Below, piece by piece: positions 20,393 to 47,668 of a stretch of 59,942 bases of DNA; positions within the stretch are counted from its first letter, which is position 1; each line of letters starts with the position of its first letter. Where the stretch lies: positions 1-59,942 of the forward strand of contig JAGVQG010000056.1 of NCBI GenBank assembly GCA_020051845.1, given 5' to 3'. Made by a program: the position numbers and the translations under genes. The notes beneath the pieces are model-generated. The model was not told the DNA's origin. It ran no database searches and saw only the letters and a list, made by a program, of their open reading frames with translations. Source of the DNA: an archaeon. GTDB lineage: Archaea > Nanobdellota > Nanobdellia > Woesearchaeales > ARS49.

Positions 20393-21268
20393 TCAGACCA
20401 CCTTCAGTTTGACTTCACCATATCCTTCTTTCTCGATCTTGTCGATGAGTGCCGGACCATCTGTCTGCGTTATGGCGCCGTTCATCATTATGTGGACGCT
20501 GTCAGGCTCCATCTTGCTCGCGTGCTTTGGAAGGTGGGTTATCAGTATGACGCCAAGGCACGGTCCACGTATCTTGTTGAAAGCGTCGCGCACGACGCGC
20601 AGCGCGTCTATGTCAAGGCCGGAGTCTGTCTCGTCGAATATCGCGAACGCGGGCTTTGTGAGCAGGAGCTGCAGCATCTCGACTTTCTTCTTCTCGCCGC
20701 CGGAGAATCCGACATTGAGCTGCCTGTCGATGAAGGCGCGGTCGAGCTTGAGCGCCTTCAGGCTTGCGTTGAGGTCGCGGTTGAAGTCGGCCGCCTTGGC
20801 ATCCTTGCCATACCTTGCCTTGTAAAGATGGAAAAGGAACGTCCCCAGGTTGATGTCTATCTCCTGAGGGTTTTGGAAGGCGAGGAAGATCCCGAGCCTT
20901 GCGCGCTCGTCTGGCTCCAGCCCTAGAACGTTCTTCGAATTCAATGTCACCGTGCCTTTTGATATCTCATAGGCCGGATGGCCTGCTATCGCCATCGCGA
21001 GCGTGCTCTTGCCTGCTCCGTTCGGTCCCATCAAAACGTGCACCTCACCTTGCCTGACAGTGAGGTCGACTCCTTTGAGCACTTCCTTGCCATGGACGCT
21101 GACGTGCAGGTTCTTCACTGCCAGCACCGCGCGTCGAGGGCACTTCTTCCGCGAGTCCTCGTCCTTGCAGCCGCAGCCGCAACCGAGGTCCTTGATCGTC
21201 CTGGGAGGCACTCCCTCGTCGTATTGATCGAGTATCTTCATTGCTTCTTCGAATCCCATTTCATTCAC
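20393..21268 (-). CDS. sufC: Fe-S assembly ATPase SufC with an about 50-aa Cys-rich N-terminal extension
   Basis: Walker [13 protein letters not shown] signature FSGGEKK and Walker [13 protein letters not shown]. The N-terminus contains [18 protein letters not shown]. The ATG overlaps the upstream regulator by 8 nt. Internal GTG starts at 21127 and 21118 cannot be excluded. Confidence 0.9.
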
Positions 21269-28152: not shown

Positions 28153-28980
28153 TCACAATATCCGCGCGTTGCTGTACATCTGTAGCGCATGGAATCCTGT
28201 TCGTTCTTGCGAGTACCATTTCGCCATCTGTCTCACGCATATTGGTCCATAGAGTTTGTTGACTTTGCGTGAGTTGATATTCCCGTTGGTTTGCTGTTCG
28301 ACAGCCACATCAAGGAGCATGCCTTTTGTCCAGCCTTCGTCGTCTGCTACGCCGCCGGTTTCGAACCATCTGCATAGGCTCTCGTATGCGGTGTCATACT
28401 TCTCCGGCAGGCCGACTTCCGAGGCGATGCTGTCTCCGAGATTGCGGTATTTGCTCGGCGCTACGCAGAAGGCGCGACGGCGGCAGGTTTTTCCCAAGGC
28501 CGACATCCTTTCTTCCGTCGTGCTTTTCGGAGTCAGCTGTTTCAATTCTGTCTCCCTCAGCAACTCACCCAGCTCAGGTACGTCAATCATGGCGCGCACA
28601 GCAGCCACTCCTTTGTGCTGGTATGCACGGAGATTCTCTATGTTCGCGGCAAGTTCACACTCACCTTTGTCCCACAGAAACTCAGGCAGTATAGTCCCGT
28701 GGAACAGGAATGCGTATGTCGAAGCGTCGACTACTTTTCCGGGTGTGTCCACATGGCCGCCTTTCTCCCACTTTGGCGCGAGGCGGTTGATCTCTGGGCG
28801 TTGGAAGTATTGGCATAGCTTCCTGTAGATTACATCTTCAGGAGTGCCCCAGATGAAACTCATGTGTTGGGCTTTTTCGCGGAATTCGCGGGGCGAGCTG
28901 TGTTTAGAGGCATACAACAGCGCTTCCTCGAAATATATTCCTTGGTCGATTCGGGGCTGTCTTTTGAAGGATTCTTGCAT
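28153..28980 (-). CDS. hypothetical protein
   Basis: 275-aa ORF. No motif recognised. Confidence 0.55.
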   Translation of the reverse strand: MQESFKRQPRIDQGIYFEEALLYASKHSSPREFREKAQHMSFIWGTPEDVIYRKLCQYFQRPEINRLAPKWEKGGHVDTPGKVVDASTYAFLFHGTILPEFLWDKGECELAANIENLRAYQHKGVAAVRAMIDVPELGELLRETELKQLTPKSTTEERMSALGKTCRRRAFCVAPSKYRNLGDSIASEVGLPEKYDTAYESLCRWFETGGVADDEGWTKGMLLDVAVEQQTNGNINSRKVNKLYGPICVRQMAKWYSQERTGFHALQMYSNARIL

Positions 28981-29113
28981 TTTGCACCTTTTGGGGTATG
29001 CTTAGAACGCCGGATGACTATATAAATCTTACTAAGAATAACCACCAAATAGTGACAACAAAACAAGGATTCTGGCATCGTCCCACATAAACCATCCACA
29101 GCCCCACTGTAAC

Positions 29114-36682: not shown

Positions 36683-36762
36683 TCAAGCCCACGACAGCTT
36701 AGCCACTCACTATTTCGCTAATCCACAATGTGTATAAAGGGACGTTTCTTGGCGCGCTCAGC

Positions 36763-37761
36763 ATGCTGAAACTTGGGGATGACCGTCATCAATTATGTCG
36801 AAAGAGGTCTTTGGACCTTGATGTGGCTGAGATCCAACAGGAATATTGTTGTGACAGGCTCATGGCTGAGCACATGGTCAAGGTGCAACGATATGCCACG
36901 AATGGCGTCGCTGACATGACCGCGGCCGTGCGCAAGTCATTGCCCGAGGGAGCACACGTCCAAGCCAGCACTCTTGCAGGCATATGCCACGTGTTCGACG
37001 TCTACGGCCACAACCTGGCCGACGCCTTGGACGAGATGGCAGGGATGTGCGAATACCAGAAACGGAGATTCAAACGTGGCTACGCTCGTATGGAGCGCTT
37101 GTTCGGCGACCAGTTCAACCGGATGCGCGACAGCACCAATGCCTACGAATTTTTCATGCCGTTCAGGCTTGAACGCAGCGGTGAGTATCTTGGCACGAAA
37201 AAAATCGACCGTTCAGAACTCCATTGCGCGCTGACAAAAGTCCTCAAAGGCGCGCACGGCCTCGGTTTCAAGAAAGACAGCGATATCGCCCGTTGCGCGA
37301 TAACCTATGTGGACGGTCTCGTTCTCGGCCTAAAGCCTTCTGATCCGGCATTGCACGATTTGCAGCGGAGAGCCAGCGAGAACACCCACTGGAGGTTCAT
37401 TAATTGCGCTTTCAACGACGGGCTTCTGAAAGGGATGCAATATGAGAATGTGCGTCGCGCGTGGGTGGGCGAACTCGATATACTACCCGGCATGCTACGC
37501 AATTATGATAGGCTGGGTAGCAGATACACTCCCTACGAACAGAACCTCGCGCTGTTGTTCGCGACCTTCGTGGCAGCGCCTTGCGCTGACATGGCCCTCA
37601 TTGCTGCCAAGGAGGTGGCCCGGAGCCAGATACTCGGCAAGCACACGTTGAGATCCGAACACGCGTTCTTGGTGAACGCCGTTGTCGAGAAGCATAAGAC
37701 CAGCATCGATGTCGACCGCACAGGGCTTCCTTTGCCTGAGCGCGTCAAGCCGAAGAGATGA
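36763..37761 (+). CDS. hypothetical protein
   Basis: 332 aa from ATG 36763. GTATAAAG at 36731-36738 looks like its TATA box rather than coding sequence. No motif recognised. Confidence 0.55.
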   Translation: MLKLGDDRHQLCRKRSLDLDVAEIQQEYCCDRLMAEHMVKVQRYATNGVADMTAAVRKSLPEGAHVQASTLAGICHVFDVYGHNLADALDEMAGMCEYQKRRFKRGYARMERLFGDQFNRMRDSTNAYEFFMPFRLERSGEYLGTKKIDRSELHCALTKVLKGAHGLGFKKDSDIARCAITYVDGLVLGLKPSDPALHDLQRRASENTHWRFINCAFNDGLLKGMQYENVRRAWVGELDILPGMLRNYDRLGSRYTPYEQNLALLFATFVAAPCADMALIAAKEVARSQILGKHTLRSEHAFLVNAVVEKHKTSIDVDRTGLPLPERVKPKR

Positions 37762-38200: not shown

Positions 38201-41200
38201 TCAACTATACGCATAGATGAAGCTCTCCGGATTCTCGTTCTGGTATGATCCTGCCGAGTCCGCACAGATGAATGCATAGCTCTTCTCGCCGTTGGTGTCG
38301 AGCTGCGTCTCACAATGGCTGTCTGTGCAGGTCATGCCCGAGGGTAGTTTGTCGAATGATTGTATGGCCGGTCCGTACTTGCAGATGTAATTTGAAGGCG
38401 TGTTCACGGTGAATTTCGTCGATGCCTTGGTCGCGGGATAGGTTATCGTCTGCGTCATCATGAACGGGCTTACCGTGAAATTGATATCCTCTCCCGGCGA
38501 CAACACGCCTCCTGTGGCTTCCGGCTGTCCTGTCGTGGTTATCTTGAGCAATCCGTGATAGAACGCGAAAGGCCTGTCGCGGCACTTGACATAGACAGTA
38601 TGTGGTCCGCTCACTCCTGTCTCCGTTTCGCACTGTCTTGTCCCGACTCCGCGCATGTCGCATTTCATCGCAGTCATCTCATCGAATGTCTTGTCGTTGT
38701 CCAGCGAGAAGGCGCATTCCGCGGGCTCGCTGAGCAATAGCTTCAACGAAGAAGGCATCGCAGCGGGTGGAGCGGGAGTGACGTTCAAGACACGCACGGG
38801 TATGTTGTCCTGTCGTATCGCTACTTCTATGACTATCTGTTTGGTCGTCGTGCCTTCCTCATCTTCGTCGCACGAGAGATAGAGGCGCAGTTCTGTCGGA
38901 ACCTTACGCAGTGCGTTGAATGTCAACAAAAGATCGACCTTGTTTCCAAGCGTGTTGAACTGCTTGTTCTCTTTGAGCGCGGAACTCAGCGGCTCTCCCC
39001 ACGCATCCTTTGCTTTCTGCAGGTTGACCTGTGCTCGAGGATCCGTTGTCGCGAAACTGAATACGCTATCGAACAGGCTCTTTGTCTCGAATGGATTCGC
39101 GAAGTACGATGCTGCCTTCGAACCCGTGGTCATTGAATTGAACTGACTGGTGTCAGGCACTTCGAAAAGGAGGTCCTGCGATTTCGCGGGTTCGCGCAAG
39201 TCGGGGTTGAACGCGTTGCTTCCTGGAGAGAATGATTCCATCATATAGTCGAAGAATATCTTCGCTCCACCAAGAGCGGACTCTGTTTCTGGATCGTCGG
39301 ATTCTAGCGAGCCTGTGAAACCAGGTATCATGCTCAGCATGCACGTCGCTTCCGAATCAGTCTTCACCGATATGTTGAGCATCTCCCAAGGATTGAGCGG
39401 TTCGACCACACGATATCCTGAGGATGTTGCCTGCACGTTCCTGCCTGGGAACTCGATGGTGATATCAAGTTGTGTGTCGGTGCCTTTCACCACGCATTTC
39501 GGGAAGCCATTGTCATTGGAGAAGACGCATTTGCGTCCTAGCGACTTACAGAGATATTCCGAACATCCGCCTAGCGCGTCTGCGCACATCTCACAACGTT
39601 GCTTCTTGAGCCGCACTGGTGCCTTGTATAACTTGCAATGCGTACTGTGGCGGATCCATAGCGGCACCATGTCCATCAAGACAGCGATAGGATCCTGCGA
39701 TAGCCACCAGTTGATGTATTCCCGTGTCCGATCCTTCATGTAATCAGGATCTCCCTGTGGATAGTTGAAATTGTCTGCCTTGACTCCCTGGAATGCAGGT
39801 ATGTTGAGAGGGACTTTCGGCGCCTTTATGATCTCGTCAAGAGTTGTGGTCATGTATGATTTGGATGGCTTGCCTGTACTGCTCTTGAATCGCTTGTTCG
39901 GTCCGAACTCAGCCATGTTGACCTTGTTTCCACAGTCGCCGAGCGAGTAGCACCATTGCGCCATGGCATTTGCGTGGGCCACTGGCGGCTTCCAGCTGAG
40001 TGCCTGCGAGAACACACCTATGTCCTCGTGCATCTGTTCGTTGCCGACCTGGCATACCAGCTTGCCTGAGGCGGTCCAGTGCTGCAAGCCAGGTCCTACT
40101 ATTGGATTGCATCGGTCGCTGTTGCGCCCAGCAACCTCTGTTGGTGGCGGTGGGACGAATCCTGGCCGCCAGAAGCAGTCGCGCACTGTCGTGTTCTCGC
40201 ACTGCCCAACACTTGCCTGGCTCCAGCAATCCTGCCAGCGGTTGTCGCGGCAACCGGCGACTTCACCATCTTCGACGCAGAACTCCTCCCTGTAGTCCCT
40301 GCATGGCTCCTCGATTATCTCGCCGTCGATGCATGAAAGTTTCACGAAACGGCTTCCCACAAGATCAAGCCCGTTCTTGCGATGGTAACTGTCGCCGCAC
40401 CATTGTTTTCCGTGCGGTAGTATCGTGCCTTCAAGATCGCAGCTCTTGCATGCTTTGCCGTTGCATTTCGTTTCATTGACGAAAGGCGGAACGCAGCGGC
40501 TGTCATTGGCCTCCACGACAATGCCTTTCTTCGAGGTGCATAATGATGCTGGCGCGTTGAAGTAGCAGTCGAAGCCATCATTGCAGTTCTGCAGGTATGT
40601 GACAGGCCTGCGCGGCTCGAGCGGCTTGTCAGCTGTCGACAACCCGCTCTGCGCAACGCGGAAAAAATATTGGCGTCCGACATTGTCCGTGGTGTTGAGC
40701 TCTATGACCGTGTTAGGATATGGCCTGTCGATGTTTATCTTTATGCCTGCGCCGTGCTGTTTCATCCAACTATCCTTGTCCATGTACCCGTTCTGGATCT
40801 CCTGGTTCAAGAGTAAAAGCGCAAGTGAGTGTAGCTTGCCTATCGGAGACTGTGTGCGCTGCGCAAGCTGGTCGAAGCTTATGGTGTCCTGGCCGCGCTT
40901 GAGTTTGATCGGTATCGTCAGTTCGCTCGTGACATCATCGAAGCCTATGATGCTGCTGATCGCGAGCGTTCCTCTGCTCACGACAGTGAATCCCTTCTTC
41001 TCAAGGGGCGCAAGATCGATGCAACCATCCACCAAAGGCGTGATGAGCGTGTCGAATTCCTCGGCGATGTCACGCTTTGTTCGCAGTAGGTTGATGCACC
41101 CTTTCCCATCGACTTCCTGGCAGTATACGCTGTAGGGTTGACCACGATGCACTATGAAAGGCTCCTTCAGCGTACCTCCTTTCTCCGATAGCTTGCGCAG

Positions 41201-41407
41201 GTAAGGTATACTTTGCGAACGGTAACATTCGGTGACTATTCCCTGGAGCTGCGTCGACGGGTCCTCGTTGCGCGCAGTGTCCTCGACAATGGTGTTGGTC
41301 TTCTCGCCACGACCCACCACATAGACAACGGTCCCTACTCCTATGATAAGTATGAGACCTATGATTATGAAAATGGCTATCTGACCTCTTTTGTTCCCCA
41401 TATCCAA
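38201..41407 (-). CDS. large (1068 aa) Cys-rich extracellular protein with a class III (pilin-like) signal-peptide-like N-terminus
   Basis: N-terminus MDMGNKRGQIAIFIIIGLILIIGVG. About 26 Cys counted by eye in the central third. No catalytic motif recognised. Confidence 0.75.
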   Translation of the reverse strand: MDMGNKRGQIAIFIIIGLILIIGVGTVVYVVGRGEKTNTIVEDTARNEDPSTQLQGIVTECYRSQSIPYLRKLSEKGGTLKEPFIVHRGQPYSVYCQEVDGKGCINLLRTKRDIAEEFDTLITPLVDGCIDLAPLEKKGFTVVSRGTLAISSIIGFDDVTSELTIPIKLKRGQDTISFDQLAQRTQSPIGKLHSLALLLLNQEIQNGYMDKDSWMKQHGAGIKINIDRPYPNTVIELNTTDNVGRQYFFRVAQSGLSTADKPLEPRRPVTYLQNCNDGFDCYFNAPASLCTSKKGIVVEANDSRCVPPFVNETKCNGKACKSCDLEGTILPHGKQWCGDSYHRKNGLDLVGSRFVKLSCIDGEIIEEPCRDYREEFCVEDGEVAGCRDNRWQDCWSQASVGQCENTTVRDCFWRPGFVPPPPTEVAGRNSDRCNPIVGPGLQHWTASGKLVCQVGNEQMHEDIGVFSQALSWKPPVAHANAMAQWCYSLGDCGNKVNMAEFGPNKRFKSSTGKPSKSYMTTTLDEIIKAPKVPLNIPAFQGVKADNFNYPQGDPDYMKDRTREYINWWLSQDPIAVLMDMVPLWIRHSTHCKLYKAPVRLKKQRCEMCADALGGCSEYLCKSLGRKCVFSNDNGFPKCVVKGTDTQLDITIEFPGRNVQATSSGYRVVEPLNPWEMLNISVKTDSEATCMLSMIPGFTGSLESDDPETESALGGAKIFFDYMMESFSPGSNAFNPDLREPAKSQDLLFEVPDTSQFNSMTTGSKAASYFANPFETKSLFDSVFSFATTDPRAQVNLQKAKDAWGEPLSSALKENKQFNTLGNKVDLLLTFNALRKVPTELRLYLSCDEDEEGTTTKQIVIEVAIRQDNIPVRVLNVTPAPPAAMPSSLKLLLSEPAECAFSLDNDKTFDEMTAMKCDMRGVGTRQCETETGVSGPHTVYVKCRDRPFAFYHGLLKITTTGQPEATGGVLSPGEDINFTVSPFMMTQTITYPATKASTKFTVNTPSNYICKYGPAIQSFDKLPSGMTCTDSHCETQLDTNGEKSYAFICADSAGSYQNENPESFIYAYS

Positions 41408-41555
41408 GGCTTTCGGGTGCCGGCTGCTTTATAAATGTATGGCATCGCGCCAGAACTCCTTGACGAGAACGACAACGCTATTTGTTGTCACTACGAAGAG
41501 GCAAAAAGAAGAAAGATTTATATAGTAATGTTGCGTATCATGACCTTGAGTGAAG

Positions 41556-42806
41556 ATGGCACAAACACCCGCGCCCTTGAAGAAAGAGCCATATTATACG
41601 ATTCTTGCGTTCGAGAAGCTCGAGCTACAAAAACCGCTCGAGATGATCACGAGCACGATATTATCTGAAAAAGCAGGCGCTCAATCATATGAAGTCTGGC
41701 GCCAGAACCCGCTCAGCATAATGCCAAACGTCCTGGCGTGGGCGTCGATGACCTGCTACGGTGGTTTTCGCAACAGGGTCAGCCCGAAGTTCGAGGAGCA
41801 CTTCGACCTTGACTTCTCATTCTATCCACGCACGCAAAAAAGGATGGAGAATGGCAGCATCCTAGAACAACACCTGTTCGAGAGATGCTCAAAGGATCCT
41901 GACGCTGCGCGAACAAAGGACATAGTGATACAGCTCCGTGAGCGCGACGACCACATGAAATATGATGCGACAAGATTCACGCACGACATCCAAGACCTTC
42001 TGCCCGACGCACTAAAAGATGTGAAACAGAATCTCGGCTTCGCGCCTTATGTTCCAGGAACTATCGATGCTTTCACGCACGCGTTCAGGAACGAGAATTT
42101 TGATGTGGCCACTGCCAAGACCTGTGAGAAAGGGTTGTTCCGACGTGGCATCGATATCGTGGCTGTCAACCTCCTCTACAATAGAGGTTTCATAGAAACA
42201 CTCTGCGACACTAGACGCGGAAACAAAGGCGAACTGACCTATCAAGGGATCAAGGACGCCAAGTGGGTGTTGTTCTTCCCAGAGGACATGTACGAACGCG
42301 ACCTGAAGACGATAGACGGCGTGAAAGGGGATTATGCGCAGCTAGACCCGATACAGAAGATGATCGCGATGAATGTCGCATTGCCAATCATTGCATTCAA
42401 GACGAAGACAGGCTTGTTCACGCCAGTAGGGGCACAAGACAAGAAAGGATCGAGGATCGTTCCCCGATCAAGCGAGACCCAAGTGCTTAGGAAGATATAC
42501 ACCCGCATACCTTCGGTGGCTTTCGACTCCGCGATTCTGATCGACAAGCACATTATTGAGAAGAACAGGACCCATCCTTGGACGATAAATGAATACGAAC
42601 GCCAGAAGACTGAGGTTGATCCTGAGGAGAAGATACCGACAGGACCTCAAGAAACAATTGAAGTCAAGCACGACAATCGTCCGACCGAATTGGAAAGCCC
42701 TCCTGTTGTGCTTCCTGTGAACCCACCCGCTCTTCCCAAACTGCCGAAGTTCTCCGTCAGAGGTCCAAGAAAGACGGCACATCTCCCGTTCGAGGATATC
42801 AAATGA
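41556..42806 (+). CDS. hypothetical protein (416 aa) with Pro-rich C-terminus
   Basis: ATG 41556 is about 32 nt downstream of TATA-like TTTATATAG. The stop overlaps the next gene (ATGA). Confidence 0.6.
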   Translation: MAQTPAPLKKEPYYTILAFEKLELQKPLEMITSTILSEKAGAQSYEVWRQNPLSIMPNVLAWASMTCYGGFRNRVSPKFEEHFDLDFSFYPRTQKRMENGSILEQHLFERCSKDPDAARTKDIVIQLRERDDHMKYDATRFTHDIQDLLPDALKDVKQNLGFAPYVPGTIDAFTHAFRNENFDVATAKTCEKGLFRRGIDIVAVNLLYNRGFIETLCDTRRGNKGELTYQGIKDAKWVLFFPEDMYERDLKTIDGVKGDYAQLDPIQKMIAMNVALPIIAFKTKTGLFTPVGAQDKKGSRIVPRSSETQVLRKIYTRIPSVAFDSAILIDKHIIEKNRTHPWTINEYERQKTEVDPEEKIPTGPQETIEVKHDNRPTELESPPVVLPVNPPALPKLPKFSVRGPRKTAHLPFEDIK

Positions 42807-43708
42807 ACCAAGCCACGATCTCATTGGGGAAGAAAGCCCTATTTTGCGTCAACGCGACGCTCCTCACTGCCGCAGGCTACCTCTGGTACAATCACGCCGA
42901 CGCGCACAAACCAATCAGGATCACTCCGCATATCGCACAAGAACATCAAGCACCCGATCCCAGGACCGACAACTTGCCCGCTGCGACGCAAATCACGACC
43001 GCGCCCGATACGCTTGAAGTCCTCGTGCAGAAACCCGCGACTGTCGATCCGCGTGTCACGACCCTCACGCTCAAAGGTTTCGACGAGTACAACGCACTCG
43101 TTCCGGCCATGCTCAAGGTCTCCGACGAACTTAAATCGAATAGGATCGATGTGCCATCCGAGATCATCGCGCTCACTGTGCTTACAGAGACTTCAGGAAA
43201 GACCGGTCGCGACGGAAAATACCGCGACCGCTACGAGCCGGGATTCCAGAGGAGATATGTCGATCCCCTGTTCGACAAGTGGGACAAGAAAGCAAATGGC
43301 TACGGACTCCACATGGTCCTTGAGAAGATATACAAGAGGATGCAGGAGCAAGGAAGCGAAATCAGCAAAGACGCGTTCAAGGCCATGCTCGCGTCGTCCC
43401 CAGGACCCGCGCAGGTGATTAGACTGACGGCATATGACGATGGTTTCCGAGGTTTGCCGAACGAGCTTGACGACAATGAAGTCAACCTCCGCTGCGCCGC
43501 AATGCACATCTGGAGACAAAGGCACCAGACATCCACGGTTGTCGACAATGATGAAGGACAGCATCGAGTCTACGACCCCCGACTAGTCCTCAGGGCATAC
43601 AACGCAGGCAATGTGGACGCCAAGCCGACAGAAGGCCACGTCGAGCGTGGCATGGATTACTGGACACAGTTGCAGAAGAACACCCTTGCGAATTCCCGTC
43701 GTAGATGA
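42803..43708 (+). CDS. membrane-anchored lysozyme-like / lytic-transglycosylase-like protein
   Basis: N-terminal TM (ALFCVNATLLTAAGYLWY). LTETSG (Glu-Ser-type motif), SSPGPAQV and VLRAYNAGN resemble SLT motifs I-III. RYEPGFQRRY resembles the muramidase FE.H.F element. Confidence 0.45.
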   Translation: MNQATISLGKKALFCVNATLLTAAGYLWYNHADAHKPIRITPHIAQEHQAPDPRTDNLPAATQITTAPDTLEVLVQKPATVDPRVTTLTLKGFDEYNALVPAMLKVSDELKSNRIDVPSEIIALTVLTETSGKTGRDGKYRDRYEPGFQRRYVDPLFDKWDKKANGYGLHMVLEKIYKRMQEQGSEISKDAFKAMLASSPGPAQVIRLTAYDDGFRGLPNELDDNEVNLRCAAMHIWRQRHQTSTVVDNDEGQHRVYDPRLVLRAYNAGNVDAKPTEGHVERGMDYWTQLQKNTLANSRRR

Positions 43709-43804
43709 CACCCGCAGCCAATCTAACCTTTTAATCATCACTACTAAGTGATTAAAACACCGAAATGTTTAAATAGTAGTTATACCACTACACAGTAGAT
43801 ACAA

Positions 43805-44335
43805 ATGGGGGTTATCGTGAGAACAACTCTGTTCATCATCATCGCCTTCGCTTTTGGCATCGCCATCGGCGGAGTACTCCACGGAATGACCGTGGTCGAT
43901 GTTGCTGCAGCACCTTCTCCACAGCAACCCGCAAGCGTATCCACACTCGCGTTCACGTCCACTACGGACATGGCCGCGCCCAGCGACCATATCCCTGAGA
44001 GCGCCATCAGCGTCCTCTCGGACAAGGTCGTCATAGACCTGCCCGGCGCTGTCTGGGCGAAATTCACGCCTTCGGGTTCGATGAAACCGGTGTTCGACAC
44101 CGGCGCGAACGCAATCGAGGTCGTGCCTTCGTCCCCTGGACAGATCAACGTCGGCGACATCGTGTCGTACCAGAGCGACTGGATGGACACGCCGGTCATC
44201 CACCGCGTGATTCAGACAGGCACCGACTCGGAAGGATGGTACGCCGTGATGAAGGGCGACAACAACAGCACGCAGGATCCTGGCAAGGTCAGGTTCCCGC
44301 AGGTGCGTCGCGTCGTCGTCGCGGTCATTTACTGA
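43805..44335 (+). CDS. signal peptidase I, archaeal/eukaryotic Sec11 type
   Basis: N-terminal TM, SGSMKP (catalytic Ser), HRV, and the GDNN motif. Confidence 0.85.
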   Translation: MGVIVRTTLFIIIAFAFGIAIGGVLHGMTVVDVAAAPSPQQPASVSTLAFTSTTDMAAPSDHIPESAISVLSDKVVIDLPGAVWAKFTPSGSMKPVFDTGANAIEVVPSSPGQINVGDIVSYQSDWMDTPVIHRVIQTGTDSEGWYAVMKGDNNSTQDPGKVRFPQVRRVVVAVIY

Positions 44336-44352
44336 AACTCACCACACACCTC

Positions 44353-44650
44353 ACAACAAGACGTTTTGCGTTTTGTTGTATCCCATACTGGATCGCAAGA
44401 TCAAGTATGGGCTTATGCTCACCAAACACCTCTTTTCCTGCGTCGGCAGCCCTCACGGGCTGTCGGCGTAGGTTTTGATCTTGTGAGGTTAACTCACCAA
44501 ACACAACGGAAGCAAAGCTTCCGTGTGCACGGAACCAACGGTTCCGTTGCACAACGAAATGCAAAGCATTTCGTGTGCCAGAAACGCTCCGCGTTTCTCG
44601 GCACCTCTTTTCCTGCGTCGGCAGCCCTCACGGGCTGTCGGCGTAGGTTT
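44353..44650 (+). repeat. array of eight stable hairpins including a 49-nt perfect direct repeat (44427-44475 and 44602-44650)
   Basis: Hairpins paired by hand at 44353-44379, 44382-44411 (GCAA loop), 44437-44472, 44506-44524, 44525-44552, 44554-44574, 44575-44604 and 44612-44647. Confidence 0.75.
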
Positions 44651-44710
44651 ATTTTCAAACCATTACGAACCCTAGAAACCTTCTTATAGCCGCCATCTAG
44701 AACCTGCCGC

Positions 44711-45592
44711 ATGGCTGAGATTGATGACTGGAAAGAGGCTGGCAGAATAGCTGCCCAGGCACTTGATTTCGGCAAGAACCTGATCAAGCCAGGTTCCAAG
44801 ATTCTTGATGTATGCGAGAAAGTCGATGCGAAGATCCGCGAACTCGGTGCGCAGCCCGCTTTCCCGACTCAGATCAGCTGCGACCACGTTGCGGCACATT
44901 CATGTCCTTTGGATGATGATGCGACAATATTTGACAAGCAAGTCGCTTCTTTGGATGTGGGTGTTCATGTTAATGGCGCGATAGGCGACACTGCTCTGAC
45001 TGTCGACTTGAGCGGTCAGCATGCTGATCTTGTGAAAGCTTCGCAAGAAGCTGTCGATGCCGCGCTGAAGATCGTCAAGATAGGAGTCACGCTCGGTGAG
45101 ATCGGAAAGACCATCCAGGAAGTCATCACAAGCCACGGTTTCGCTCCCATCAGGAATCTCAGCGGCCATGGCCTCGACCGTTTCAACATCCACACAATCC
45201 CCACTGTCCCTAACATTGATACCAATGATTCAACAGAGCTAGAGGACGGCATGTTCATCGCCATCGAGCCGTTCGCCTCCACAGGCAGCGGTCTTGTGCA
45301 GGAATCCGGCGAACCTACTCTTTTCTCATTCGCAGAGATAAAAGGAATACGTTCACAATACGCACGCGACGTGATGCGAGAGGTCGAACAATACACCACG
45401 CTTCCTTTCACGACGCGCTGGGTCAGCAGGTCCCTGGGTATCGGCAAGACCAAGTTCGGACTGAGGGAGCTGATGCAATCCGGCGTCCTAGAGAGCTACC
45501 CGCCGCTCATTGATTCAAGAAAAGGCATCACGAGCCAGGCCGAGCATTCTGTCTACGTCTGCGACAAGCCGATTGTACTCACTCGATTGTGA
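44711..45592 (+). CDS. map: methionine aminopeptidase, type 2
   Basis: MAEIDDWKEAGRIAAQAL..., AFPTQISCDHVAAH, with the characteristic type-2 insertion. Confidence 0.92.
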   Translation: MAEIDDWKEAGRIAAQALDFGKNLIKPGSKILDVCEKVDAKIRELGAQPAFPTQISCDHVAAHSCPLDDDATIFDKQVASLDVGVHVNGAIGDTALTVDLSGQHADLVKASQEAVDAALKIVKIGVTLGEIGKTIQEVITSHGFAPIRNLSGHGLDRFNIHTIPTVPNIDTNDSTELEDGMFIAIEPFASTGSGLVQESGEPTLFSFAEIKGIRSQYARDVMREVEQYTTLPFTTRWVSRSLGIGKTKFGLRELMQSGVLESYPPLIDSRKGITSQAEHSVYVCDKPIVLTRL

Positions 45593-46350
45593 ACCGGATT
45601 GTTTCCGGCTTTGTTTTCGAAAACAGTTTAAAGAGCAGGACTAGATTTTACTGCATGAACAAAAAAGACCGCAATCCGGACTATGATGGATTGTATCGCG
45701 AGGCGGTGAGACTCTTCCGCAGAGTCCGGACTTTTTCGTCAGGAGCGTTGGATGAGACGTATTACACGATGCGCGTGTACGAGACCGCGAAAGAGATAAT
45801 CCTCCGCTTGCTCAAGCCTGTCCACAGACAACGGATCCTTGTCGCCGCGTTGCTGCACGACATCGGAAAGACAAAGTTGGACGTCAAAAAGATACACGAC
45901 GAGAAAGGTTTCACCGATGAGATAAAGCCCGAGTGGAAGCGCCACCCTAAGCTGAGCGTCCCGATGGCAAGGCGCATCCTCAAACGCATGAGGCATTCGG
46001 ATTCTTTCATCGATGGTGTTTGCTATCTTATCGAGAATCACAGCAACAAGTCTGCCGAGCCGATGACGCTCGAGCTGAAGATCCTGCAAGACGCCGACTT
46101 GATAGCCGACTGCGGCGTCGCCGGCTTCATCAGGCCTTTCTCTTTCGGCGGTTTCTTCAAACGACCGACCATCGGCAGCATCATGTTCATACAGAAGAAC
46201 AAGTCGCGCATAGAGAATCTTGATGAGATCCACCTCAACGTCTCGAAGAAGCTCGCGCGACGCGAATTGAGGCTGGAGAAGGATCTTGTCAGGATGGCTG
46301 GAAAGACCATCCGCTCCTCGGTCGTACAAAACGTTTTTAAGCTTCCTTGA
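45589..46350 (+). CDS. HD-domain phosphohydrolase
   Basis: ALLHDIGK and QDADLIAD. The start is uncertain: GTG 45589 overlaps the map stop, or ATG 45655. Confidence 0.75.
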   Translation: MNRIVSGFVFENSLKSRTRFYCMNKKDRNPDYDGLYREAVRLFRRVRTFSSGALDETYYTMRVYETAKEIILRLLKPVHRQRILVAALLHDIGKTKLDVKKIHDEKGFTDEIKPEWKRHPKLSVPMARRILKRMRHSDSFIDGVCYLIENHSNKSAEPMTLELKILQDADLIADCGVAGFIRPFSFGGFFKRPTIGSIMFIQKNKSRIENLDEIHLNVSKKLARRELRLEKDLVRMAGKTIRSSVVQNVFKLP

Positions 46351-46380
46351 TATCGGTATCCTCAATAAGAGGTGATTTGT

Positions 46381-46539
46381 ATGTGTTTTGATGCGAAGAC
46401 TTTGGGCTGGATCCAGATAGTCGGATCCGTGCTTTCAGGAATTCTCGCCTACCAGAACGAGGGTTGGGAAGTCCTGATCCTCGCGGTGCTGTTCCTCATA
46501 ACAGGAATCCACCACGTGATGGAAAAGAAGAAGCGATAA
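46381..46539 (+). CDS. 52-aa two-TM micro-protein
   Basis: Translated by hand: MCFDAKTLGWIQIVGSVLSGILAYQNEGWEVLILAVLFLITGIHHVMEKKKR. Strong SD AAGAGGTGA 6 nt upstream. Confidence 0.55.
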   Translation: MCFDAKTLGWIQIVGSVLSGILAYQNEGWEVLILAVLFLITGIHHVMEKKKR

Positions 46540-46563
46540 AGAATATTTTTGTTTTTTGTTTTC

Positions 46564-47601
46564 TCAATCTTTTATCACTCTTGTCTCGAGAGGTTTCTGC
46601 CAGGGTTGTGTCTTCTGCCAGGCTCCGACCCAATCCGCAGGCAGCACCATGGTGAGCGCTGCGATGTCACCGAGTCTGTCTTCGAGTTCGGCTGTCTTGA
46701 AGGCGACATCCTTGCCGAGAGTCGGGTGCACGCATTCGGCGAATCGTTCCTCGATGAGCGGTTGCAGCACATCCTTGTCATTCCACATGCTTCCGCCAAA
46801 GATGAACGCTTGCACGTCGTGGTCGGCGCTCACGTTCGCGAGGGTCTGCGCGATGTAACCTGCTGCTTCCGAGATCACGCGTCGCGCGACGAAATCCCCT
46901 CTCCTGAATTGGTCGAAGACGTATTTCGGCTTGTCCTTGGGATCAACGACTTCTATCTTCCTGTTCATTATCTCTTCGTAGATTGCGGCGATGGCGGGTC
47001 CTGCCGCGTGCGCCTCAAGGTGTCCGCGTATGCCGCAGCCGCAGATCCTTCCGTTCGGAACGACCTTGTGGTGTCCGAAGTGTCCCGCGTTCCGTCTGCC
47101 TAGCACGAGCTTGCCGTGGGACTTCACGCCACCACCTATACCTGTGCTTATCGTCATGTACGCGACGACATCATATCCTCTTCCGGCGCCGAACATGTGC
47201 TCGGCATTGACAGCCGTCGTGCAGTCGTTGCCTGCCTCGACCCGCTCATAGCTCTGGGAAAGATAGTCTCTTAGCGGGAATCCTGTCCAGTCATTGTTCC
47301 TGCCTTCCTTTCTCGCGATGCCTTCGCAGATGTTGGGAGCGACGACAAGTTCATACTTGCCGCGAGGATTGTCGTCGAATGGTCCGCATGTGCTGATGCC
47401 GACTCCGCTGATCCGTTTCTTGTCTATGCCTGCGTCCTTGCAGGCTTCAGCGATCAGATTGTCGACCTGTCGCGGAACCGTGTTCTCATCGCCGACCCGC
47501 ATGACGTCCTGCTTGACCTTGGAATGTATGCCGTCGATGCTCGCCACGCTGGCGCGTATGTTCGTTCCACCTATGTCCACTGCCGCAAGATACTCAGTCA
47601 T
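46564..47601 (-). CDS. ROK-family sugar kinase (glucokinase-like)
   Basis: AAVDIGGTNIRA; the Zn motif CGCGIRGHLEAH. Confidence 0.88.
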   Translation of the reverse strand: MTEYLAAVDIGGTNIRASVASIDGIHSKVKQDVMRVGDENTVPRQVDNLIAEACKDAGIDKKRISGVGISTCGPFDDNPRGKYELVVAPNICEGIARKEGRNNDWTGFPLRDYLSQSYERVEAGNDCTTAVNAEHMFGAGRGYDVVAYMTISTGIGGGVKSHGKLVLGRRNAGHFGHHKVVPNGRICGCGIRGHLEAHAAGPAIAAIYEEIMNRKIEVVDPKDKPKYVFDQFRRGDFVARRVISEAAGYIAQTLANVSADHDVQAFIFGGSMWNDKDVLQPLIEERFAECVHPTLGKDVAFKTAELEDRLGDIAALTMVLPADWVGAWQKTQPWQKPLETRVIKD

Positions 47602-47668
47602 GAAGATCCCCACTCATTTATCGCAGTGGCATCTGGAAATGGTTCAAAAGCTTTTGCCGTCTGGAGAC

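What the first reader, a model, noticed from the sequence alone, without database searches (positions are those of the whole stretch)
38201..44335. Candidate cell-surface / host-interaction locus (giant Cys-rich protein, unknown protein, lysozyme-like enzyme, signal peptidase)
The giant envelope protein gene (minus strand) and the unknown/lysozyme-like operon (plus strand) diverge from a 150-nt region. That region has a TATA-like element for each direction (around 41425-41435 and 41517-41524). A Sec11-type signal peptidase follows about 100 nt downstream with its own TATA-like element. Grouping an adhesin-like giant protein, a wall-degrading enzyme and an export-processing enzyme is what one would expect of an attachment or penetration apparatus in an episymbiotic archaeon. 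I know of no described system with this composition. This is a hypothesis from gene context only.
Basis: inference. Interest (0 to 1): 0.7.

Follow-up and report, generated by a model that had tools for sequence, protein, structure and literature searches.

The report
Fast-evolving surface genes beside housekeeping peptidase
The four genes are real and three probably encode exported proteins of a tiny symbiotic-type archaeon (a pilin-signal giant surface protein, a bacterial-wall-cutting enzyme and an ordinary signal peptidase), but they are neighbours only in close relatives, not a conserved attachment machine.

Summary
Observation confirmed. The four ORFs, the 154-nt divergent spacer and the three TATA boxes lie where stated.

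- **301-aa protein:** a divergent SLT/GH23 lytic-transglycosylase homolog. The catalytic Glu and the GPxQ and YNxG motifs are conserved, and 17 of 22 family members hit Pfam SLT.
- **176-aa protein:** a Sec11-type signal peptidase I.
- **Giant protein:** no known domain. It belongs to a large multi-copy Woesearchaeota/Nanoarchaeota family and carries a conserved class III (prepilin-like) signal, so signal peptidase I is not its expected processing enzyme.

The "apparatus" reading is only partly supported.

- The full gene order recurs in one close relative whose whole neighbourhood is collinear.
- A second relative has giant<->peptidase with no 418/SLT genes. A third has an unrelated divergent gene.
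- SLT homologs elsewhere sit among housekeeping genes.
- None of 86 giant-family loci contains an SLT gene. Only two distinct contigs there hold a peptidase.
- Usual giant-family neighbours are a ~400-aa membrane protein, Lgt and an ABC ATPase.

Two points remain of interest. Giant, 418 and SLT evolve far faster (32-49% identity) than their neighbours (68-90%). The 418-SLT and peptidase promoters share a palindromic element.

Verdict: new members of known kinds. SLT enzymes in these archaea are already published. Modest interest.

The parts
38201..41401 (-). Giant Cys-rich surface protein gene (1066 aa from ATG 41401; the ORF extends to TTG 41407). It has a class III (prepilin-like) signal MGNKRG|QIAIFIIIGLILIIGVG, a confident globular domain at about residues 50-340, a Cys-rich middle and Ig-like beta-sandwich C-terminal domains.
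   Evidence: family P0003-P0018; more than 30 invariant Cys; 357 confirmed stretches in GTDB genomes, Woesearchaeota/Nanoarchaeota, multi-copy; [KR][GA]Q plus hydrophobic stretch in 13 of 14 members; AF2 pLDDT 69; only weak Ig-like fold matches; no Pfam or PDB sequence hit.
41428..41435 (-). TATA box (TTTATAAA) of the giant gene, 27 nt upstream of ATG 41401. The adjoining GCCATACA element is conserved in orthologous loci.
   Evidence: conserved in L001, L008 and L088, partly in L002.
41486..41501 (+). Operator-like element TTGTCACTACGAAGAG (imperfect TCACT-N4-AGTGA palindrome), 16 nt upstream of the 418 TATA box and about 53 nt from the giant TATA box.
   Evidence: conserved in all five orthologous divergent spacers; shared with peptidase promoters of the window, L002 and L096; one-mismatch match; 57.5% upstream identity with the promoter at 29026(-), background 27 +/- 7.6%.
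41517..41524 (+). TATA box (TTTATATA) of the 418-SLT bicistron, 32 nt upstream of ATG 41556.
41556..42806 (+). Lineage-specific orphan protein (416 aa) with no signal peptide or TM segment and a Pro-rich C-terminus. Its stop overlaps the SLT start by 4 nt (ATGA), so the two are probably translationally coupled.
   Evidence: only itself in 5.8 billion proteins; 50% identity to the L001 fragment; 36% to the L096 fragment, 49% to L008; no hydrophobic segment; no PDB relative; no viral relative.
42803..43708 (+). Divergent SLT/GH23 (lysozyme-like) lytic transglycosylase homolog, 301 aa. It has a Sec-type N-terminal signal (KK-hydrophobic-ADA|H, inferred), a low-complexity linker, and a catalytic domain at about residues 90-295 with E129, G201-P-A-Q204 and Y266-N-A-G269.
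   Evidence: P0002, 49% identical, hits PF01464 at 30.4 bits against a cutoff of 21.3; 59 representatives; invariant E129, G201, Q204; near-invariant Y266, N267, G269; 17 of 22 members match SLT; 3 have LysM; weak MltC, EmtA and EtgA alignments at the motifs; NCBI names in Woesearchaeota/Nanoarchaeota. The window protein itself has no Pfam hit and its AF2 model failed.
43737..43751 (+). Perfect palindrome TCACTACTAAGTGAT upstream of the peptidase TATA box. A second, one-mismatch copy (CACTACACAGTA) lies at 43786-43797 between the TATA box and the ATG.
43768..43775 (+). TATA box (TTTAAATA) of the signal peptidase gene, 30 nt upstream of ATG 43805.
   Evidence: homologous to the peptidase promoters of L002 and L096.
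43805..44335 (+). Sec11-type (archaeal/eukaryotic) signal peptidase I, 176 aa. It has an N-terminal TM anchor and the catalytic boxes SGSM (Ser), HRV (His) and GDNN (Asp).
   Evidence: TIGR02228 50.9 bits, E 1.6e-13, cutoff 51.85; human SEC11C/SEC11A E about 1e-5 with the boxes aligned; TM at residues 1-31; 74% identical in L096, 45% in L060.

Best explanation
This is not a dedicated four-gene system. It is a small, fast-evolving patch of surface genes in a housekeeping region of a Woesearchaeota/Nanoarchaeota-type (DPANN) archaeon, made of three separate leaderless transcription units.

1. The giant gene encodes one paralog of a large, DPANN-restricted, multi-copy family of Cys-rich surface proteins. 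Its conserved KRG|Q-hydrophobic N-terminus is a class III (type IV prepilin-like) signal. It is therefore most likely cut by a prepilin peptidase, then held in the membrane or built into a pilus-like fibre by its N-terminal helix. That would display a disulfide-rich head and Ig-like domains as an adhesin (inferred).

2. The 418-SLT bicistron encodes a lineage-specific cytoplasmic-looking protein of unknown role, translationally coupled to a Sec-exported SLT/GH23 enzyme with an intact catalytic Glu. Archaea lack murein, so the enzyme most likely cleaves the MurNAc-GlcNAc bonds of bacterial peptidoglycan, whether of a host, prey or debris (inferred, and already proposed in the literature for this phylum). 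This cassette is present or absent between the giant and peptidase genes in different relatives.

3. The signal peptidase is the cell's general Sec11-type enzyme. It probably removes the SLT signal peptide as it does for every Sec substrate, and that is the only mechanistic link.

The promoter element shared by units 2 and 3 reflects either promoter duplication when the cassette was gained or lost, or a common regulator.
For: Gene identities:
- SLT.
- Peptidase.
- Class III signal in 13 of 14 giant-family members.
- Giant family of 357 stretches, multi-copy, in DPANN genomes.
- No enzyme fold, only weak Ig-like matches.

Three promoters at leaderless distance. A 4-nt overlap links only the 418 and SLT genes.

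Synteny:
- The full order is kept only in CAYHOF01 (L008 plus L096), where flanking CutA, MetAP, p156 and FtsZ are also collinear.
- L002: giant<->peptidase directly.
- L088: a different divergent gene.
- L060: giant, then a 287-aa TM protein, then the peptidase, all on one strand.
- L094/L095: the SLT gene sits among Elp3, RpoD and ribosomal-protein genes.
- 0 of 86 giant loci hold an SLT gene. A peptidase is found on only two distinct contigs.
- Recurrent partners are instead a ~400-aa TM protein (20 loci), Lgt (18 loci, PF01790 E 7e-39) and an ABC ATPase (15 loci).

Rate contrast with the CAYHOF01 relative: FtsZ 90, p156 83, MetAP 79, peptidase 74 and CutA 68% identity, against giant 42, 418 36-49 and SLT 32%.

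The rest of the window is housekeeping. SLT-domain proteins in Woesearchaeota and Pacearchaeota are published and interpreted as binding or degrading bacterial walls (PMC8204110, PMC10936187).
Against: - Giant-peptidase proximity appears in three different arrangements (window/CAYHOF01, L002, L060). That could mean more than chance.
- The 418-SLT and peptidase promoters share a palindrome at the same distance from the TATA box, and the element is conserved in all orthologous divergent spacers. This is compatible with co-regulation.
- The window SLT protein itself does not reach any Pfam threshold and its structure model failed, so activity is inferred only from conserved motifs.
- The class III signal is a motif-level prediction. 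No prepilin peptidase or pilus ATPase was found among the window genes scanned.
- Most orthologous contigs are truncated at the critical side, so the number of informative relatives is small (four lineages).
Confidence: 0.6

Rival explanations
1. One reading: the four genes form a functionally integrated attachment or penetration apparatus. The giant adhesin binds the host, the SLT enzyme breaches its wall, the 418-aa protein is an accessory factor, and a dedicated signal peptidase matures the components. All are co-regulated from adjacent promoters.
For: - Adjacency of all four genes is conserved in CAYHOF01.
- Giant-peptidase proximity is seen in three arrangements.
- The 418-SLT and peptidase promoters share a TCACT-N4-AGTGA element. 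It lies between the divergent TATA boxes, next to the giant promoter, and is conserved in five orthologous loci.
- Giant, 418 and SLT all evolve fast, as host-interaction proteins do.
- All but the 418-aa protein carry export signals.
Against: - There is no SLT gene in any of 86 giant-family loci. A peptidase is found on only two distinct contigs there.
- L002 and L088 lack the 418/SLT genes beside the orthologous giant gene.
- SLT homologs occur in unrelated housekeeping contexts.
- The giant carries a class III signal, which is not a signal peptidase I substrate.
- The peptidase is conserved at the housekeeping level (74%).
- The same promoter element also precedes an unrelated orphan gene at 28153-28980.
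- The only relative that keeps all four genes is collinear over the whole region, so that synteny carries no functional information.
Confidence: 0.15
2. The 418-SLT pair is a remnant of a mobile element or provirus, an endolysin-like cassette that inserted between the giant and peptidase genes and has no role in the archaeon's own surface biology.
For: - The cassette is an indel relative to L002.
- The SLT domain is of bacterial or phage type.
- The 418-aa protein is an orphan.
- The cassette carries a copy of the neighbouring promoter architecture.
Against: - Neither protein has a relative in IMG/VR viral contigs or in PHROGs.
- No integrase, tRNA or flanking repeats were seen at the cassette.
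- GC content is the same as the surroundings.
- The SLT subfamily is chromosomal, with an N-terminal signal, in many Woesearchaeota/Nanoarchaeota MAGs.
- The cassette is retained across 32-49% protein divergence.
Confidence: 0.05
3. The SLT-like protein is not a wall-degrading enzyme aimed at a host. It is a general extracellular muramidase used for nutrient scavenging or competition, or a non-catalytic glycan binder. The giant protein is a structural envelope (S-layer-like) component rather than an adhesin. On this reading the locus has no host-interaction meaning.
For: - The window protein scores below every Pfam threshold.
- An insert of about 50 aa separates the catalytic Glu from the GPxQ motif, unlike canonical SLT.
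- One family member weakly hits PF11860 Muramidase.
- The giant family is multi-copy and ubiquitous in the phylum, as envelope proteins are.
- No host is known.
Against: - The catalytic Glu and both downstream motifs are invariant or nearly so across 22 divergent members, which argues for retained catalysis.
- Three members carry LysM peptidoglycan-binding domains.
- The rapid divergence of the giant, 418 and SLT proteins relative to their neighbours is more typical of interaction proteins than of structural ones.
Confidence: 0.2

Closest known systems
SLT-domain (GH23, Pfam PF01464) lytic transglycosylases of Woesearchaeota/Pacearchaeota (Rinke 2013; Castelle 2015; Castelle 2021, PMC8204110 'fam00969'), and bacterial Slt70/MltC/EmtA/EtgA
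   Same: The catalytic Glu in a T-E-S/T motif, the G-x-x-Q motif and the Y-N-x-G motif are conserved. An N-terminal export signal is present. The phylum is the same, and NCBI already names homologs 'lytic transglycosylase domain-containing protein'.
   Different: It is a small (about 230-300 aa) single-domain secreted form, not the up-to-3000-aa proteins emphasised in the paper. An insert of about 50 aa (RYEPxFxxRY...) separates the Glu from GPxQ. The window protein itself is below the Pfam threshold. It is translationally coupled to an orphan 416-aa protein.
Sec11 / archaeal signal peptidase I (TIGR02228; human SEC11A/C, PDB 7p2p/7p2q)
   Same: The Ser-His-Asp boxes SGSM, HRV and GDNN and the N-terminal membrane anchor are present. 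E is 1.6e-13 to TIGR02228 and about 1e-5 to SEC11A/C.
   Different: It scores 0.95 bit under the curated cutoff. An unusually long linker of about 60 residues lies between the TM helix and the SGSM box, also seen in the L002, L060 and L096 homologs. There is no C-terminal TM segment.
[quoted passage not shown]
   Same: A [KR]-G|Q signal followed by a hydrophobic helix, large size, Ig-like beta-sandwich domains and a presumed adhesion role.
   Different: No pilus ATPase, platform or prepilin peptidase genes are nearby. There is no sequence or fold match to PilY-like or other described adhesins. The Cys-rich core (C[RK]D[YF]REExC, PC[ST]EYxCxS motifs) has no known relative. Family-wide neighbours are Lgt, a ~400-aa TM protein and an ABC ATPase.

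Membership tests
SLT / GH23 lytic transglycosylase (PF01464) | Catalytic glutamate in the E-S motif at the end of the first helix of the domain | tested here: met
   E129 (LTETS) is invariant in the 22-sequence family alignment and aligns to the ES motif of MltC 9vi7.
SLT / GH23 lytic transglycosylase (PF01464) | GLMQ-type and AYNxG-type motifs downstream of the catalytic Glu | tested here: met
   G201 and Q204 are invariant (GPAQ). Y266, N267 and G269 are at least 90% conserved (AYNAG). Spacing between the Glu and GPxQ is about 50 aa longer than canonical.
SLT / GH23 lytic transglycosylase (PF01464) | Significant match to the family HMM above the gathering score | tested here: inconclusive
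   The window protein has no hit at E<=1. Its 49%-identical homolog P0002 scores 30.4 bits against a cutoff of 21.3, and 17 of 22 family members match (best E 4.9e-10).
SLT / GH23 lytic transglycosylase (PF01464) | Lysozyme-like alpha-helical fold | tested here: inconclusive
   The AF2 model built on 2 sequences had pLDDT 35. It is predicted all-helical across residues 93-300 but is unusable for fold search.
SLT / GH23 lytic transglycosylase (PF01464) | Cleavage of MurNAc-beta-1,4-GlcNAc with formation of 1,6-anhydroMurNAc | not testable with these tools
   Needs an enzyme assay.
Archaeal/eukaryotic signal peptidase I (Sec11 type, TIGR02228) | HMM score above the curated cutoff | tested here: inconclusive
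   50.9 bits against a cutoff of 51.85, E 1.6e-13. Pfam gave no S24/S26 hit.
Archaeal/eukaryotic signal peptidase I (Sec11 type, TIGR02228) | Ser/His(/Asp) catalytic boxes (SGSM, HR, GDNN) rather than the bacterial Ser/Lys type | tested here: met
   The alignment to human SEC11C/SEC11A shows SGSMKP, IHRVI and KGDNN conserved.
Archaeal/eukaryotic signal peptidase I (Sec11 type, TIGR02228) | N-terminal membrane anchor | tested here: met
   Hydrophobic segment at residues 1-31.
Class III (type IV prepilin-like) signal peptide proteins | Charged residue, then G/A at -1, then Q/A/S and a hydrophobic helix of about 20 residues near the N-terminus (FlaFind-type pattern) | tested here: met
   RG|QIAI plus a hydrophobic stretch in the window protein. 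The pattern is present in 13 of 14 family members. K4, R5, G6 and Q7 are invariant among orthologs.
Class III (type IV prepilin-like) signal peptide proteins | Cognate prepilin peptidase and pilus assembly ATPase/platform genes in the locus | tested here: not met
   None among the 24 window proteins scanned. Family-wide neighbours are Lgt, a TM protein and an ABC ATPase. The rest of the genome was not available.
Conserved multi-gene 'system' (operon or gene cluster) | Co-occurrence of the component genes across related genomes beyond general collinearity | tested here: not met
   Only CAYHOF01 keeps all four genes, within a fully collinear region. L002, L088, L060 and L094/95 differ. 0 of 86 giant loci hold an SLT gene.
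Conserved multi-gene 'system' (operon or gene cluster) | A single transcription unit or shared regulation | tested here: inconclusive
   There are three separate TATA promoters. Only the 418 and SLT genes overlap. The 418 and peptidase promoters share a palindromic element, which is also found at an unrelated gene.

The most novel reading that the evidence does not exclude
The conserved TCACT-N4-AGTGA element lies between the divergent giant and 418 promoters and again before the peptidase gene. It is kept in five orthologous loci whatever gene follows. It could be the operator of a regulator that switches on a pilin-signal giant adhesin, a secreted muramidase with its orphan partner, and the signal peptidase together. 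That would be a contact-induced host-interaction regulon in a bacterium-associated DPANN archaeon, with the 418/SLT cassette as a swappable host-range module.
Probability: 0.1. Interest if true: 0.6.

Novelty: new member of a known kind. Interest (0 to 1): 0.3.

Why it matters
DPANN archaea are mostly uncultured, and how they attach to and exploit hosts is largely unknown.

This locus gives one concrete, testable pair of candidates. One is a member of a very widespread but uncharacterised class-III-signal, Cys-rich surface-protein family. The other is a small secreted SLT enzyme that would make sense only against bacterial walls. Both evolve much faster than their neighbours.

The analysis also shows that gene adjacency here should not be read as a dedicated machine. 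The enzyme class is already reported for this phylum, and the peptidase is housekeeping.

Tried and rejected
- Pfam, NCBIfam and PHROGs scans on the four proteins returned only the peptidase.
- A single-sequence PDB search with the 301-aa protein gave only spurious designed-repeat hits. The 2-sequence profile found nothing.
- AF2 on the SLT protein with a 2-sequence alignment gave pLDDT 35, so it was not used for fold search.
- Viral-contig scans for the SLT and 418 proteins found nothing.
- A metagenome scan with the SLT profile found no confirmed relative.
- A metagenome scan with the giant orthologs added only one truncated ortholog, L089.
- An exact look-up of the window's own giant protein was not on record.
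- PDB and Pfam searches with the giant-family profile found nothing, apart from one Big_5 hit at E 0.014.
- Foldseek on the giant model gave no hit at E<=1e-3 in the PDB. In BFVD three weak hits reached E<=1e-3, all multi-domain with TM about 0.08-0.14.
- The 418 profile against the PDB found nothing meaningful.
- Is the L088 divergent gene a diverged 418 homolog? hhalign probability 1.5%, rejected.
- Is the orphan at 28153-28980, which shares the promoter element, a 418 paralog? BLASTP E 0.31, rejected.
- Is the palindrome CACT-N4-AGTG enriched window-wide? No: 10 matches against 20 expected at one mismatch.
- An Rfam search on the hairpin spacer found nothing, even at E<=1.

Full report
**1. 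What is in the sequence**

- The giant gene, 38201-41407 (-), is 1068 aa from a TTG. The public call starts at ATG 41401 and gives 1066 aa (P0003).
- The second ORF, 41550-42806 (+), is called from ATG 41556 and gives 416 aa (P0019).
- The third ORF, 42803-43708 (+), is 301 aa. Its ATG overlaps the stop codon of the preceding gene by 4 nt.
- The fourth ORF, 43805-44335 (+), is 176 aa.

The divergent spacer is 154 nt. The gap before the last gene is 96 nt.

The three TATA-like octamers lie at 41428-41435, 41517-41524 and 43768-43775, each 27-32 nt from the called ATG. The motif TTTAWAWA occurs 24 times in the window against 2.7 expected, and no shuffle reaches 24. Nearly all copies lie about 25-35 nt ahead of start codons. 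It is therefore the genome's general promoter signal, with leaderless transcripts. The locus consists of three transcription units: the giant gene, the 418-SLT pair, and the peptidase gene.

The rest of the window is archaeal housekeeping: FttA/aCPSF1, malic enzyme, CutA, MetAP, an HD protein, a ROK kinase, FtsZ, ArgRS, ProRS, HisRS, SufBD/SufS, eIF2-gamma and phosphoglucomutase.

**2. The individual genes**

*The 301-aa protein.*
- It matches no Pfam, NCBIfam or PHROGs model.
- Its only relative in the word-indexed search of 5.8 billion proteins, P0002 (49% identity), passes Pfam's SLT threshold at 30.4 bits against 21.3.
- An exhaustive profile search found 59 cluster representatives.
- In an alignment of 22 of them, E129 (T-E-S/T), G201 and Q204 (GPxQ) are invariant. 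Y266, N267 and G269 are at least 90% conserved. These are the three SLT/GH23 signature motifs.
- An extra stretch of about 50 aa lies between the first two motifs.
- 17 of the 22 members individually hit PF01464, and three also carry LysM domains.
- The family profile weakly aligns to MltC, EmtA and EtgA at those motifs.
- Named members are from Nanoarchaeota/Woesearchaeota MAGs and are already annotated as lytic transglycosylase domain proteins.
- The N-terminus (KK, a moderately hydrophobic stretch, then ADA|H) looks like a cleavable Sec signal. This is inferred from the sequence.
- 'Lysozyme-like' is therefore right. Whether the enzyme is a lytic transglycosylase or a hydrolytic muramidase cannot be decided here.

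*The 176-aa protein.*
- It scores E 1.6e-13 against TIGR02228 (archaeal signal peptidase I), 0.95 bit under the curated cutoff.
- It aligns to human SEC11A/C with the SGSM, HRV and GDNN boxes intact.
- It has an N-terminal TM anchor.
- 'Sec11-type' is right.

*The 416-aa protein.*
- It is an orphan. It has no family, no PDB relative and no viral relative.
- It has no hydrophobic segment.
- Homologs exist only in the closest relatives: L001 at 50%, L008 at 49% and L096 at 36%.

*The giant protein.*
- It has 40 Cys and one N-terminal hydrophobic helix.
- No Pfam or PDB sequence match was found.
- The family is large. 357 confirmed stretches occur among GTDB species representatives. The records are titled Woesearchaeota, Nanoarchaeota or Nanobdellota, or, for many TPA MAGs, 'uncultured Methanosarcinales'. 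Several copies often occur per genome.
- More than 30 Cys are invariant across the family.
- Its N-terminus, MGNKRG|QIAIFIIIGL..., fits the class III (type IV prepilin-like) signal pattern. So do 13 of 14 family members, and K4-R5-G6-Q7 are invariant among orthologs.
- An AF2 model built on the 14-sequence alignment has mean pLDDT 69, with residues 50-340 at 85-92. It shows a mixed alpha/beta head, a Cys-rich middle, a helical segment and C-terminal beta-sandwiches.
- Foldseek finds no significant whole-chain match. It returns only weak Ig-like ectodomain similarities: integrin, cadherin, PD-L1 and a pilin.
- This fits an extracellular, non-enzymatic, adhesin-like protein.
- Large class-III-signal adhesin-like proteins are a recognised class in archaeal type-4-filament systems (bioRxiv 10.64898/2026.04.22.720090). 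No pilus genes are nearby here.

**3. Is it a conserved cluster?**

I fetched 79 distinct genome loci encoding giant-family members, plus contigs for the closest homologs.

A tblastn search and an iterated HMM search of all loci gave three results:
- No SLT homolog lies next to any giant-family gene.
- A 418 homolog is found only in L001 (giant 75% identical) and L008 (42%).
- A peptidase is found only in L002 (fetched again as L009; giant 40%) and in L060 (27%).

The informative relatives are these.
- **CAYHOF01 MAG.** Contig 13 (L008) reads CutA <- giant <-> 418 N-terminus, then the contig ends. Contig 29 (L096) starts in the 418 C-terminus and continues with SLT, the peptidase, two 178-aa ORFs, MetAP, p156 and FtsZ. 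The full order is therefore conserved, but so is the whole surrounding region.
- **L002.** The orthologous giant gene diverges directly from the peptidase gene (46% identity over the available N-terminus, E 4e-18). No 418/SLT genes lie between them.
- **L088.** The divergent gene is unrelated to the 418-aa protein (BLASTP E 0.35; hhalign probability 1.5%).
- **L060.** The order is giant, a 287-aa TM protein, then the peptidase, all on one strand, followed by ABC ATPase and FtsX-like permease genes.
- **L094/L095.** An SLT homolog (34% identity) lies between an Elp3-like radical-SAM gene and RpoD/ribosomal-protein genes, with neither a giant gene nor a peptidase nearby.

Clustering all ORFs within 6 kb of the giant genes shows the recurrent partners:
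- a ~400-aa membrane protein, in 20 loci
- Lgt, in 18 loci (PF01790, E 7e-39)
- an ABC ATPase, in 15 loci
- RNase HII-like and radical-SAM genes

**4. What remains interesting**

*Rate contrast.* Against the CAYHOF01 relative, the flanking proteins are 68-90% identical: FtsZ 90, p156 83, MetAP 79, peptidase 74 and CutA 68. The giant protein is 42%, the 418-aa protein 36-49% and the SLT protein 32%. This pattern is typical of surface or interaction proteins under diversifying pressure. It also places the peptidase with the housekeeping genes.

*Conserved divergent spacer.* The spacer is conserved across five orthologous loci. Both TATA boxes, a GCCATACA element beside the giant-side TATA box and a central TTGTCACT-N4-AGTG element are kept, whichever gene follows on the far side.

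*Shared promoter architecture.* The same layout (palindrome, about 13 nt, GAAA, TATA) precedes the peptidase gene in the window, in L002 and in L096. This suggests one of two things. The 418/SLT cassette may have been gained or lost between a pre-existing promoter and the peptidase gene, with promoter duplication. Alternatively, a common regulator may bind both promoters.

A third promoter in the window, ahead of an unrelated orphan at 28153-28980 (-), shares the element. Its upstream region is 57.5% identical to the 418 promoter's, against a background of 27 +/- 7.6%. This favours a regulator site but weakens any locus-specific meaning. The bare palindrome is not enriched in the window.

**5. 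Mechanism proposed**

Shown:
- gene identities at motif and HMM level
- promoter positions
- synteny pattern
- rate contrast

Inferred:
- The giant protein is processed by a prepilin peptidase and displayed as a membrane- or fibre-anchored adhesin.
- The SLT enzyme is exported by Sec, its signal is removed by the generic Sec11 peptidase, and it cleaves bacterial peptidoglycan. Archaea have none of their own, and pseudomurein has a different linkage (established knowledge).
- The 416-aa protein, translationally coupled and lacking a signal, acts in the cytoplasm. It may serve as a chaperone or regulator of the enzyme. This last point is pure speculation.

The only mechanistic link between the peptidase and the other genes is generic signal-peptide removal.

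**6. Comparison with what is known, and novelty**

SLT-domain proteins in Woesearchaeota and Pacearchaeota have been reported since 2013-2015. They were discussed in 2021 as possible tools for attaching to or degrading bacterial host walls (PMC8204110; PMC10936187). The small secreted subfamily seen here is already annotated as such by NCBI. Sec11-type peptidases are universal in archaea.

The giant family has no Pfam model and, as far as my searches went, no description. It does fit the known class of class-III-signal adhesin-like proteins. I therefore rate the finding as new members of known kinds and not a new system. Interest is 0.3.

The most novel reading still open is a co-regulated, contact-induced host-interaction regulon with a swappable 418/SLT module. 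I give it about 10%.

Noticed in passing
window 44336-44710: The 375-nt spacer between the peptidase stop and the MetAP start is an array of eight near-perfect short hairpins. MFE is -168.8 kcal/mol against -98.6 +/- 4.6 for shuffles (z = -15.3). It is the most structured 375-nt stretch in the window (mean -116 +/- 13.5). It contains an exact 49-nt direct repeat (44427-44475 = 44602-44650) and three AACTCACCAAACAC-like 14-mers. There is no Rfam match even at E<=1. Its function is unknown; it could be a terminator or stabiliser array, a REP/MITE-like element or an ncRNA.
   Followed up: partly
L078 12917-13144 (CAYHOF010000009.1): A 52-nt piece of the window's hairpin array (two adjacent hairpins) recurs at 85% identity in the related CAYHOF01 genome. 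It sits inside another hairpin-rich spacer between a giant-family paralog and a convergent small Cys-rich lipoprotein-like gene. This suggests a dispersed hairpin-repeat element in this lineage.
   Followed up: partly
window 29027-29066 (-), upstream of the gene at 28153-28980 (-): The promoter of an unrelated 275-aa orphan with no export signal shares the TTGTTGTCACTA...G-TGG element with the 418-SLT promoter, at the same distance from the TATA box. Upstream identity is 57.5% against a background of 27 +/- 7.6%. It is a possible binding site for one transcription factor.
   Followed up: partly
L010-L086 (giant-family loci), e.g. L055 4703-5509, L039 8760-9971, L073 7246-8004: Across the family, giant genes recurrently neighbour a bacterial-type prolipoprotein diacylglyceryl transferase (Lgt, PF01790 E 7e-39; 18 loci), a ~400-aa single-TM protein with no Pfam match (20 loci) and an ABC ATPase, often with FtsX-like permeases (15 loci). 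None of these was found beside the window's giant gene. The only tblastn match in the window is a weak ABC ATPase hit about 17 kb away, at 20450-21136. Lgt in archaea is unusual and might relate to lipid anchoring of these surface proteins.
   Followed up: partly
window-wide (e.g. 1253, 1379, 10254, 23540, 48169, 53506): TTTAWAWA boxes sit about 25-35 nt upstream of start codons throughout the window (24 observed against 2.7 expected). This implies predominantly leaderless mRNAs in this organism.
   Followed up: partly
L008, L009, L013, L015 and other loci (record titles): Dozens of TPA MAGs titled 'uncultured Methanosarcinales archaeon' carry this giant-protein family. Among the other records it is found under Woesearchaeota, Nanoarchaeota or Nanobdellota titles. 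The closest relative of the window (CAYHOF01, FtsZ 90% identical) is one of the 'Methanosarcinales' records. The label looks like a placeholder or a mis-assignment, so the window's taxonomy should be checked with marker genes.
   Followed up: no
window 45589-47613 vs L096 4452-6869: Between MetAP and the p156/FtsZ genes the window carries an HD-domain gene and a ROK kinase. The otherwise collinear relative L096 has four unannotated minus-strand ORFs there instead. This is a second variable spot in the region. L096 also has two unrelated 178-aa orphan ORFs where the window has the hairpin array.
   Followed up: no
window 36730-37761 (+): A 343-aa orphan with no Pfam match lies next to CutA. It has only a 25%-identical counterpart in L008, several kb from the equivalent position. 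It is another fast-evolving lineage-specific gene flanking the locus.
   Followed up: no
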